Below are positions 24,001-27,000 of a DNA stretch of 64,000 nucleotides, one piece after another. The first letter of the stretch is position 1, and each line of letters opens with the position of its first letter. Origin of the DNA: an uncultured Nitrospiraceae bacterium (GTDB lineage: Bacteria; Nitrospirota; Thermodesulfovibrionia; Thermodesulfovibrionales; Dissulfurispiraceae). The position numbers are program-made. The stretch is taken from assembly GCA_963705105.1 (NCBI GenBank), contig CAVPIW010000007.1, positions 128,001 through 192,000 of the forward strand. The letters are read 5' to 3'.

Positions 24001-27000
24001 GTCCGCAATTGGGCGGGCAGAGTTTCGGGAAGTACTTGTTGAGCTGCGCAACCCTTCCGCCGAGATAGGGGTTCTTCTCGACGATCGTTACGTGAGCGCC
24101 CGTTTCCGCGGCGTCCACCGCAGCGGTGAGCCCGCTGAACCCGCCGCCGATCACCACTATGTGATTGCCCTGTCCTTTCGTCTGCTCAGGCATGCTGCTC
24201 CTCCTTTATTGCGCGTGAATAATAAATGCGGAATGCACACTGCACGGTGCGCAAGACGCCTTGCGCATCATGGACTGTGCATTGCCTGAAAAAAAGGAGA
24301 GGGGCTTGCGCCCCTCTCCGCTGTGGTGAATTAGTCAGGGATGATCTGCACATAGGGAACTTTCTTGATGTCCCATGTGTTGTTCTCGGCATTGTACGTG
24401 GAATTGGTGAAGCACTTCCATTCCTTGTCGTTGATGGCGAGGAAGTCTCCCCTGTAGTAGTAGCCGGGATACCTGGACTCCTGCCTGAAGAGGATATGAC
24501 GGGCATGCGCCTCGACGGAGAGGATCCTGTGATAGTTCTCCCAGCACCTCATGAGCTCGTGGAGGTTGGAGGCCGCCATCTTGTTGGCGTCTTCCTTGAG
24601 CATCTCGAGCTGCTTGAGGCCCTCGTCCAGCATCGTCTTGGAGGTCATGTACCAGGTGCTGATGCCGCCAAAATACTCGTCGGAGATCTTCTGGAGTCTC
24701 GCCTGGAGCATCTTGGGCCTGATGTAGTACGGGTTGGTCAGCGTGTCGGTCGAGTAGGTCTTGTACTTCTCGAAGACCTCGTACGGGAGATACAGCTCGG
24801 CCGCGATCGCGTCTGCCGACTCCTTGACGGACGGAGTATAGCTGGCATTGTCAAGAATGAAGGCGATGGCTGCCTTTGCCGCGATCCTTCCCTCGGCGTG
24901 GGAGCCGGAGGAGAACTTGTGACCCGAGGCGCCGACGACGTCACCGGCCATGAAGAGGCCCTTGACGGTGGACATCCTGTTGTAGCCCCAGGACCACTCG
25001 GCAGGCGTTCCCGGTATGTCGCCGGGGCCGCTGCACCAGAAGCCCGCGCAGCCGGCGTGGGAGCCGAGGATGTAAGGCTCGGTCGGCATGATCTCGGACG
25101 GCTCCTTGTCGGGCTCCACGTTCTTGGAGGCCCAGAGACCGGCCTGGCCGATGCACATATCGAGGAAGTCTTCCCATGCTTCGGCCTCGAGGTGCTTGAT
25201 CCTCTTGGCGTCCATCTTCGTGGCAAGCTCTGCCATCGCGTCGTGGGTCCTCATGAGGATGGGGCCTTTGCCCTTTTTCATGTCGAGCATCATCATGTGG
25301 TTCCTGATGGCGGTGCCGAGCTTCTCGGCATAGGGGCTGTAGAGGGCCTTCGTCTGCTCGAAGTTCTCGCCCGTGCAGTAGTCTTCGCCGAGGGCGTTCG
25401 TTGCTTTCGCCTTGAAGAAGAGGAACCATGCGCCGACAGGGCCGTATCCGTCCTTGAACCGGGCCGGGACGAACCTGTTCTCCATCAGGGTGAGCTCTGC
25501 GCCGGCCTGCATGCCGAGTGCGTACCCGGAACCGGAGTTCCAGACGGGATACCACGCCCTGCCCTGGCCTTCTGCAACCGACCTGGGCCTGAAGGTGTTG
25601 ACGGCGCCGCCCGCTGCGTTGATCATGGCCTTCGCCTTGAAGAGGTAAATCTTGTTCTCCCTGACGCTGAAGCCCGCTGCCGCCGCGACCCTGCTCGGAT
25701 CGTTGGCATCTTTGTAAAGCTTCACGATGAAGATGCGCTCGTAGTGGTTCTGCGCAACGCCGGTGGCCTTCCTGTTGACCTCGAGGGCGGCCTTTGCGGC
25801 TTCCGCCACGACGACCTTGTAGGACTCACCGTTGATCATGATCTGCCACTTTCCGGACCTGACGGGTGTTCCGCCGTCCCTCAGCATGGCCTTGCCCTCG
25901 TCCCTTGCCTGGAAGCCGTCAAGGGAGAAGCCGTCGTCGGCCTTCTTCCAGATGGGGAGTCCCCACTCCTCAAACATATGGACGGAATCGTCGACGTGCC
26001 TGCCGAGGTCATAGACGAGGTCTTCCCTGATGATGCCCATCAGGTCGGCCCTGACGTACTTCACGTAGTCGGCCACCTTGTTCTCGCCGATGTAGGTGTT
26101 GATTGCGGAAAGGCCCATCGCAACGGCGCCGCTTCTGTCCGTGGCGGCCTTGTCGACCATGGTGACCTTCAGGTTCTTCGGGCCGGCCCAGCGGCATGCC
26201 TCGAAGGCTGAGCCGCAGCATGCCATACCGCCGCCGATGAGCAGCAGATCCGTCTCAACCTCTATGATCTCAGGCTTCTGACAAAATGAAAATGTACAGG
26301 TTTCTTTTTCCATTCTTCATCCCTCCTAATTTAGTCGGTCCTCGCCGTATAGTTGAAAAAGCCGGGGCCTTTCAACGTGGCGAAATCGGGTTCGGGCTTC
26401 CCTGCGTATGCATCGACAGAACCTTCAGCGGTGAGCCTGATCGGGAATTTGAATCTCTTGAGGGAGCCGTTCCTGAATTTGACCGTCCACATGATGGAGT
26501 CGGTGCCTCTCATCGGGATGACGTTGCCGCCGAGAGGAACGAAGTCCTGATAGCCCCTGACCTCGATGGCCTGCTGCGGGCATATCTTCACGCAGTTGTA
26601 GCACTCCCAGCACTGCTCCGGCTCCTGATTGAACGCCTTCATGAGGTCCCTGTTCAGGGCCATCAGGTCGTTCGGGCAGATGTACTGGCAAGCCGTTTTG
26701 TCCTGGGCCTTGCAGCCGTCACACTTCTCAGTAATAACAAAACTTGGCATAAACCTAACCTCCTCTTTGGTTGAAATTAGCGAAATTCGCTCATGTGCCT
26801 TGATCGATCAATCCACGGCATAGTGTTTCGGTTGTATCCCCCTCAACACCTCCTTTCGCGAGATATATAAGGTATAAGCATCAGGGAGCAGGGAAACCGG
26901 CACCACGGTCCCCTGCTCTTCTTTCCAATTACACGCCTTCGGAGTACTTGTGGGTCTTGATCTCGACCTTCTCGGTCAGGCCCTGGTAGTACTCTTTCAG

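What a model noticed while it worked through the whole genome (the two positions that open the first line are those of the whole stretch)
26751..26928. Start-less Shine-Dalgarno element conserved in the sat-aprB spacer
About 75-120 nt before aprB, most relatives keep a perfect anti-SD complement (RRAGGRGGTG) with no start codon behind it, in otherwise unalignable DNA. In an order that mostly has RNase J, this fits a ribosome-parking stabiliser (STAB-SD) that lets aprBA mRNA outlast the upstream adk-sat part.
Evidence so far: Present in 15 of 22 sat-aprB spacers, with a start codon at SD distance in only 1; 0 of 22 before sat, 0 of 22 before adk, 1 of 25 before dsrA. It complements this genome's 16S 3' end. 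Here 9 of 17 such distal elements lie 80-120 nt upstream of a gene. RNase J domains in about 75% of the order.
(Added by a program. Inside this text positions count along the whole contig: contig position 128,001 is position 1 of the stretch shown here. "Call 12" and the like, gene names such as g00115 and contig names such as C1 are that model's own, and its searches are not shown. The text may have been shortened before it was handed on; [...] marks where a part breaks off. The agent that wrote the report below was given it as the finding of a first reader that could run no searches.)

Follow-up and report, generated by a model that had tools for sequence, protein, structure and literature searches.

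The report
Start-less ribosome site before aprB
Ahead of the APS reductase genes, many sulfate-reducing bacteria keep a short sequence that matches the ribosome's mRNA-docking tail better than the gene's real start signal but starts no protein, and it most likely parks a ribosomal subunit there to protect the message.

Summary
Real. GAAAGGAGGTG (window 26857-26847, minus strand) lies 96 nt before aprB and complements 11 bases of the 16S tail. The motif is in 94 of 118 sat-aprB leaders of the order (antisense 3), against 1 of 69 before sat, 0 of 64 adk, 0 of 21 qmoA, 1 of 30 dsrA. It varies almost only by A-to-G opposite 16S uridines (G-U wobble). Start codons follow it in 4 of 95, against 37.5% of background windows. 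So it very probably pairs with 16S rRNA without initiating; uORF, coding-relic and promoter readings fail. New here: a second conserved copy before hppA (25 of 30), copies in a second phylum (12 of 30), and copies before flagellin, pilin and binding-protein genes. Best reading: a STAB-SD-like roadblock against 5'-end-dependent decay (RNase J or RNase E/G), about 0.5; ribosome loading is the main rival. No transcript ends or half-lives were available. The scan noted similar elements before on other DNA (anammox and pilin leaders).

The parts
26847..26857 (-). Distal start-less SD-like element GAAAGGAGGTG, an 11-nt complement of the 16S 3' tail
   Evidence: duplex -19.7 kcal/mol, opening cost 8.1
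26885..26918 (-). Strong hairpin after the sat stop, without a U tract; probably protects the 3' end of upstream RNA or marks a processing site (inferred)
   Evidence: -22.2 kcal/mol; not scored as a terminator; in relatives a strong hairpin ends within 20 nt of the element in 63 of 84, with a U tract in 7 of 63
26758..26765 (-). True ribosome-binding site of aprB (GAGGAGGT)
   Evidence: GGAGG core in 120 of 120 relatives, 5-11 nt from the ATG
26331..26750 (-). aprB, APS reductase beta subunit
   Evidence: PF12139 and Fer4 domains
24331..26313 (-). aprA, APS reductase alpha subunit (name from gene order and recall; Pfam gives FAD_binding_2)
26929..28143 (-). sat, ATP sulfurylase
   Evidence: PF01747
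28195..28839 (-). adk, adenylate kinase
   Evidence: PF00406
19600..19609 (-). Second start-less element AAGGAGGTGA in the qmoC-hppA spacer, 123 nt before the hppA ATG
   Evidence: RRGGRGGT in 25 of 30 family loci, antisense 0
17399..19477 (-). hppA, membrane H+ pyrophosphatase, the gene behind the second element
   Evidence: PF03030

Best explanation
The element is an RNA site that pairs with the free 3' tail of 16S rRNA over up to 11 bases and holds a 30S subunit without initiation (pairing strongly indicated by sequence, about 0.85; binding not shown). After the leader is cut or its 5' end is activated upstream (RNase Y, RNase E/G; inferred), the parked subunit blocks decay that advances from the 5' end: the exonuclease RNase J where present, and 5'-end scanning by RNase E/G otherwise. 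The downstream segment (aprBA-qmo, and hppA behind the second copy) is thereby stabilised. Having no start codon keeps the obstacle in place, and the 65-nt minimum distance leaves room for a second, initiating ribosome (both inferred).
For: Held-out-position test on 119 leaders: opposite 16S U the motif has A/G 89/6, 63/32, 86/11, 42/55 with only 1, 2, 0, 2 pyrimidines; opposite C it has G 95 against A 3, 3, 3, 1; opposite A it has T 95 against C 3. A/G switched at least 5, 13, 7 and 14 times on a rough tree. Conservation stops at the ends of the 11-nt complement. The tail is CCTCCTTTC in 16 of 68 family genomes with a match, and 0 of 317 genomes show another letter there. Start codons follow in 4 of 95 (3 of 61 genera) against 37.5% of 941 background windows. 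The distal duplex is stronger than the true SD in 95 of 95, and in 92 of 95 after opening costs. G000 encodes RNase J, RNase Y and RNase E/G. PMC4113751 section 3.2 describes this geometry for cry3A. PMC9943677 reports that RNase E and G scan from the 5' end and that ribosome obstacles are limited by their transience.
Against: No transcript ends, half-lives or toeprints. The element persists without detectable RNase J, so the classical mechanism cannot be the whole reason. PMC3997798 section 16 says a 5'-bound ribosome did not protect lacZ against RNase E in E. coli. Families f2 and f3 and most of f8 have RNase J but no element before aprB. The mature 16S end is unknown; in Desulfovibrio vulgaris it was mapped as ending CCUCCUU (PMC6288834), which would not reach the first motif positions. 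In G000 the element is predicted partly paired (opening cost 8.1 kcal/mol).
Confidence: 0.5

Rival explanations
1. Ribosome loading or translation enhancer: the site captures 30S subunits (or those released at the upstream stop) and feeds the true start 65-137 nt downstream, raising protein output without changing mRNA lifetime.
For: The same pairing evidence. The element is tied to the downstream start, not to sat. It is independent of RNase J. It precedes genes for typically abundant proteins: AprBA, HppA, flagellin, pilin, periplasmic binding proteins (abundance recalled).
Against: A -20 kcal/mol duplex is 7 kcal/mol stronger than the true SD, which fits a trap better than a hand-over site (inference). 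aprB already has a strong SD in 120 of 120.
Confidence: 0.22
2. Polarity shield: a 30S subunit parked on the long untranslated spacer hinders Rho loading and keeps transcription running into aprB and hppA.
For: Rho is in 5 of 5 genomes tested. The elements lie in long spacers (median 170 nt). RNA contigs bridge the spacer.
Against: It is absent from the equally long aprA-qmoA spacer (0 of 21, median 149 nt). It is present 40-50 nt behind promoters, where little RNA is exposed.
Confidence: 0.08
3. The partner is not 16S rRNA but a small RNA with a CACCUCCUUUC seed, or an RNA-binding protein.
For: The wobble pattern shows RNA pairing, not the identity of the partner. Five further purine-rich bases follow the motif (76% vs 50%).
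Against: The motif edges coincide with the 16S complement. It recurs in several phyla. A CsrA-type GGA (recalled) is lost in the 53 of 95 copies with GGGGG unless an upstream GA supplies none.
Confidence: 0.08
4. DNA-level signal: a transcription-factor site, promoter element or RNA polymerase pause (G at -10 with T-G at -1/+1 fits the recalled elemental pause consensus).
For: Positions 0, 9 and 10 fit the pause consensus (recalled). An internal promoter was not excluded experimentally.
Against: No -10 or -35 motif at any fixed offset in 95 loci, whereas the dsrA promoter is plainly visible in the same family. The motif is strand-specific (94 vs 3) with one-way A-to-G tolerance.
Confidence: 0.06
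5. The SD of a small upstream ORF, or a relic of a lost ORF.
For: Four of 95 copies have a start codon at spacing 4-11, and 30 of 95 a near-cognate codon. A KGGD coding relic does explain a look-alike before DUF485 in G000.
Against: Start codons are depleted (4% vs 37.5%), near-cognates too (32% vs 47%), and there is no frame preference (28/35/32). In the KGG frame the fourfold-degenerate positions are R-only or invariant T. An ORF with SD and start runs through the element in 2-4 of 95 per frame.
Confidence: 0.04

Closest known systems
STAB-SD of Bacillus thuringiensis cry3A (PMC4113751 section 3.2, passages read; primary papers not seen)
   Same: An SD-like sequence about 100 nt upstream of the start that does not direct initiation and complements the 16S 3' end; a longer transcript begins upstream; RNase J is present in this genome.
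   Different: Here it sits inside a core respiratory operon of Gram-negative phyla, is conserved across an order with wobble variation, occurs twice in one gene cluster, and is kept where RNase J was not found. The 5' end and stabilisation are not shown.
5' stabilisers of Bacillus (strong SD without start codon, polypurine stabiliser, hbs, ermC; PMC3997798 section 16 read)
   Same: A bound ribosome near a 5' end protects downstream RNA in cells with RNase Y and RNase J.
   Different: These genomes also encode RNase E/G. hbs and ermC use initiating or stalled ribosomes, not a start-less site.
Obstacles to RNase E/G scanning (PMC9943677, passages read)
   Same: A ribosome on an upstream SD protects distal cleavage sites, and more so the longer it stays.
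   Different: Shown with engineered uORFs in E. coli; a natural start-less site was not in the passages read.

Membership tests
STAB-SD 5' mRNA stabiliser | Extended complementarity to the 16S rRNA 3' end | tested here: met
   (genomic tail; mature end not mapped)
STAB-SD 5' mRNA stabiliser | No translation initiation from the site | tested here: met
   By sequence only: start codons in 4 of 95 vs 37.5% background
STAB-SD 5' mRNA stabiliser | Lies in an untranslated leader about 100 nt upstream of the true start, on a transcript that begins further upstream | tested here: met
   65-137 nt; RNA-library contigs of close relatives bridge sat to aprB in two studies, which does not prove a single transcript
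STAB-SD 5' mRNA stabiliser | Host has the 5'-3' exonuclease RNase J that the site blocks | tested here: inconclusive
   Met in G000 and 272 of 317 genomes; not found in 9 genomes that keep the aprB element, nor in f10, which keeps it before other genes
STAB-SD 5' mRNA stabiliser | Stable processed 5' end a few bases upstream of the site | not testable with these tools
   Only assembled contigs were available; no ends listed (table 6)
STAB-SD 5' mRNA stabiliser | 30S binding and loss of stability on mutation | not testable with these tools
   Needs toeprinting and reporter half-lives
Intrinsic terminator (upstream hairpin) | GC-rich stem followed by a U tract | tested here: not met
   U tract in 7 of 63 hairpins; not called in G000
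Rfam RNA families | Match to a covariance model | tested here: not met
   No hit in the spacer at E up to 1

The most novel reading that the evidence does not exclude
Start-less extended SD sites are a general, conserved class of cis-element in Nitrospirota and deltaproteobacterial sulfate reducers. Placed at chosen junctions (before aprB and hppA, not before sat, qmoA or dsrA), they set the stoichiometry of the sulfate-reduction operon by parking 30S subunits, and they work without RNase J, so by a mechanism other than the Bacillus one (blocking RNase E/G scanning or feeding the downstream start).
Probability: 0.3. Interest if true: 0.8.

Novelty: new variant of a known kind. Interest (0 to 1): 0.62.

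Why it matters
STAB-SD rests on a few Bacillus examples. This is an order-wide natural series with a pairing signature, selection against start codons, and lineages with and without RNase J. It makes two open points testable: whether non-initiating 30S binding is a selected function outside Firmicutes, and how sulfate reducers tune APS reductase and pyrophosphatase output inside one gene cluster. It is not a new kind of mechanism, and its function is unmeasured.

Tried and rejected
Rfam: nothing in the spacer. Promoter and terminator scan: nothing in the spacer. Covariation with the 16S tail could not be tested, because no tail variant was found. RNA data: four runs from four studies, contigs only; no ends. 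The listed close-relative contigs over aprBA are mostly deeper than those over sat and adk in all four runs, but the tool states that contig depth cannot rank genes, so this is not used as evidence. DUF485 as an independent case: 15 of 30 leaders match, but the matches lie in the 3' end of an upstream coding sequence (KGGD), and the G000 copy looks like a relic of it; rejected. The G000 470-aa gene with an element had no relative in 67 family genomes. Among G000 genome-wide hits, L207 lies in a small ORF and L214 and L215 are hairpin arms. The tandem-pattern count (171 of 230 genomes, reversed control in 5) is not a fair enrichment test, since SD plus ATG is common anyway. On the tree, 114 of 127 rows were kept, the topology mixes families, and five positions were fixed by the search pattern, so only the A/G change counts are used, as rough values. 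RNase J as the explanation of the distribution: rejected. Literature searches listed no paper on an aprB or hppA leader element; the library lacks most subscription papers, and no supplements were read.

Full report
Setting. The window carries, on the minus strand, adk-sat-aprB-aprA-qmoABC-hppA (ORFs; Pfam; the names aprA and qmoABC come from gene order and recall). The closest named AprB loci are Nitrospirota, many titled Thermodesulfovibrionales or Thermodesulfovibrionia, so I take the order to be Thermodesulfovibrionales (inference). Family f10 is taken as Thermodesulfovibrio because its aprB upstream region resembles that of the named locus L094.

Anatomy. The 178-nt spacer reads: sat stop, a -22.2 kcal/mol hairpin without a U tract, about 28 nt, GAAAGGAGGTG at 26857-26847, 80 nt of leader, the true SD, and the ATG. 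The 11-mer is the exact complement of CACCTCCTTTC in the genomic 16S end, present on two contigs. Rfam gives nothing here, and the consensus scan finds no promoter or terminator in the spacer.

Conservation. AprB matched in 269 of 317 genomes of the order. I examined 120 loci from 77 genera and 13 families: 30 returned automatically, 80 chosen for spread over genera among the 150 listed best matches, and 10 by handle. The more distant AprB type (E about 1e-57) was not sampled. Of 118 loci with sat upstream, 94 have RRRGGRGGT 30-150 nt before aprB, against 3 on the opposite strand; 60 of 75 genera have it. By family: f1 34/37, f4 1/1, f5 6/6, f6 4/7, f7 3/5, f8 2/7, f9 15/16, f11 7/7, f12 11/14, f13 12/12, and f2 0/2, f3 0/3, f10 0/2. 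Controls in the same loci: sat 1 of 69 (only 12 with long spacers), adk 0 of 64, qmoA 0 of 21; dsrA 1 of 30. Flanking columns are weakly conserved, and conservation ends at the edges of the 11-nt complement. When an extra ORF lies between sat and aprB, the element stays 67-80 nt before aprB.

It looks like RNA pairing with the 16S tail. Holding out one position at a time in 119 leaders, the four positions opposite 16S uridines take A or G (89/6, 63/32, 86/11, 42/55) and almost never a pyrimidine (1, 2, 0, 2). The four core positions opposite cytidines are G (95) with A at 3, 3, 3 and 1. The position opposite adenosine is T (95) with C at 3. The end positions are looser (G 84, A 12; G 92, A 5). 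A-to-G is tolerated where G-U can form, and the other transitions are not. On a rough AprB-AprA tree of 114 rows the A/G state changed at least 5, 13, 7 and 14 times. The tail reads CCTCCTTTC in all 16 of 68 family genomes that gave a match, and 0 of 317 have another letter at that place. The mature end is not known; passages of PMC6288834 list a shorter tail for Desulfovibrio vulgaris.

It does not start a protein. ATG, GTG or TTG lie 4-12 nt behind the core in 4 of 95 copies, against 37.5% of 941 windows elsewhere in the same leaders; one locus per genus gives 3 of 61. Distances to aprB are 65-137 nt with no frame preference. The core is GGGGG in 53 of 95, while the true SD is GGAGG in 120 of 120 and in 795 of 865 genome-wide. 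The distal duplex is stronger in 95 of 95 (median -20.4 vs -13.4 kcal/mol) and in 92 of 95 after opening costs. A coding relic fails: an ORF with SD and start spans the site in 2-4 of 95 per frame, and degenerate codon positions are constrained. No -10 or -35 motif recurs at a fixed offset, whereas the dsrA promoter is obvious in the same family. A strong hairpin ends within 20 nt upstream in 63 of 84 long spacers, with a U tract in only 7.

Wider than the finding. A second copy, AAGGAGGTGA at 19609-19600, lies 123 nt before hppA. RRGGRGGT is in 25 of the 30 best family loci (strict form 19), antisense 0, with a start codon behind at most 5. In a 101-genome sample of the phylum of a deltaproteobacterial locus, 41 had aprB; 12 of the 30 best loci carry the element, antisense 0; 2 of the 11 parsed have an ATG at the short spacing of 4. 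In two of them (L234, L238) aprB is preceded by its own TTGACA/TATAAA promoter-like site 40-50 nt upstream of the element. Loci titled Aquicultor, Thermoleophilia, Actinomycetes, Deltaproteobacteria and Deferribacteres have it; 0 of 14 titled Gamma-, Beta- or plain Proteobacteria do. In G000, strong sites (-16 kcal/mol or better) 60-120 nt before a start number 34 on the sense and 14 on the antisense strand; the window enrichment is p = 0.007 sense and 0.72 antisense (own rough gene calls, window chosen after seeing the data). Of 26 tandem-pattern hits inspected (10 from five f10 genomes, 16 hand-picked from 150 listed of 396), 24 are start-less; the genes behind them include TauE exporters, flagellins, pilins, H+-pyrophosphatases and periplasmic binding proteins. 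A coding overlap was not excluded for each.

Nucleases. G000 has RNase J, RNase Y, two RNase E/G-family genes and Rho. RNase J is in 272 of 317 genomes but in 0 of 21 of f10. But 9 of 10 inspected f10 hits before other genes are start-less elements, and the aprB element is kept in nine genomes without a match: G011, G062, G087, G088, G094, G095, G096, G161, G162. Four of these are 89-98% complete with RNase J in congeners or no congener to compare, so incompleteness may explain them. The five f5 genomes span three genera in which 0 of 6 have the gene; the C-terminal domain was also not found in the four tested; their aprBA DNA is 79-88% identical while the leaders are 42-61%. So the element is maintained without detectable RNase J.

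Expression. Close-relative contigs from RNA libraries bridge sat and aprB in two of four studies laid (26566-27000; 26698-27112), and nothing covers 28872-29200. This fits read-through past the hairpin, but contigs show no ends, strand or levels.

Mechanism. Shown by sequence: selection for a long, wobble-tolerant complement of the 16S tail, against a start codon, at 65 nt or more from a strong true start. Inferred: 30S binding. Inferred with less certainty: protection of the downstream segment. PMC4113751 (passages of section 3.2) describes STAB-SD as a non-initiating SD where bound 30S stops RNase J1. PMC3997798 (section 16 read whole) lists a strong SD without a start codon as a stabiliser in Bacilli, and notes that a 5'-bound ribosome did not protect lacZ from RNase E in E. 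coli. PMC9943677 (passages) reports 5'-end scanning by RNase E and G and that uORF ribosomes protect less than expected because they leave; a start-less site would not leave, which fits the depletion of start codons and offers a route in RNase J-less lineages (my inference). I give the roadblock 0.5, ribosome loading 0.22, and the remaining rivals 0.04-0.08 each.

Novelty. It works like a STAB-SD, but membership is unproven: the 5' end, binding and stabilisation were not testable, and the RNase J criterion is inconclusive. Six searches (listings only, except for the four papers named) showed no report of this element in sulfate-reduction operons. Earlier unchecked notes of this scan describe similar start-less sites in anammox, pilin and other leaders; they are not support, but the class is not first seen here. 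Verdict: new variant of a known kind, interest 0.62.

Noticed in passing
window 19600-19609 (-): Second start-less element before hppA, conserved in 25 of 30 family loci with a 3'-shifted consensus RGGAGGTGA.
   Followed up: yes
L203:500-939, L208:600-935, L204:500-819 (G000 C5, C8, C6): Three leaders start with a sigma54-like TGGTAT-N5-TTGC (motif recalled). L203 and L208 share a paralogous 200-nt leader with two SD-like elements about 116 nt apart and a possible 30-codon ORF without an SD.
   Followed up: no
L149-L153, L156, L158, L125-L127, L191, L195, L179, L180: An unannotated ORF of roughly 100-135 codons lies between sat and aprB in families f3, f9, f10 and some f6 and f13 loci.
   Followed up: no
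L293-L308: The 3' end of the gene upstream of DUF485 encodes KGGD or RGGD with SD-like codons 70-125 nt before the next start; in G000 only this piece remains. It may be a dual-coded element.
   Followed up: partly
family f10 (21 genomes) and f5 genera g31, g33, g34: RNase J was not found, though RNase Y, RNase E/G and Rho are present in those tested.
   Followed up: partly
aprB leaders, about 25-45 nt before the ATG (window about 26781-26791): A small hairpin, often GGCTT..AAGCC or GCATC..GATGC, recurs just upstream of the A-rich tract and true SD; folding of this region was not strong overall (median z -0.58).
   Followed up: partly
L262-L291: dsrA in family f1 has a well-conserved TTGACG-N17/18-TATATT promoter-like site behind a T tract.
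   Followed up: no
window 29729-29802 (+): tRNA gene (Rfam RF00005).
   Followed up: no
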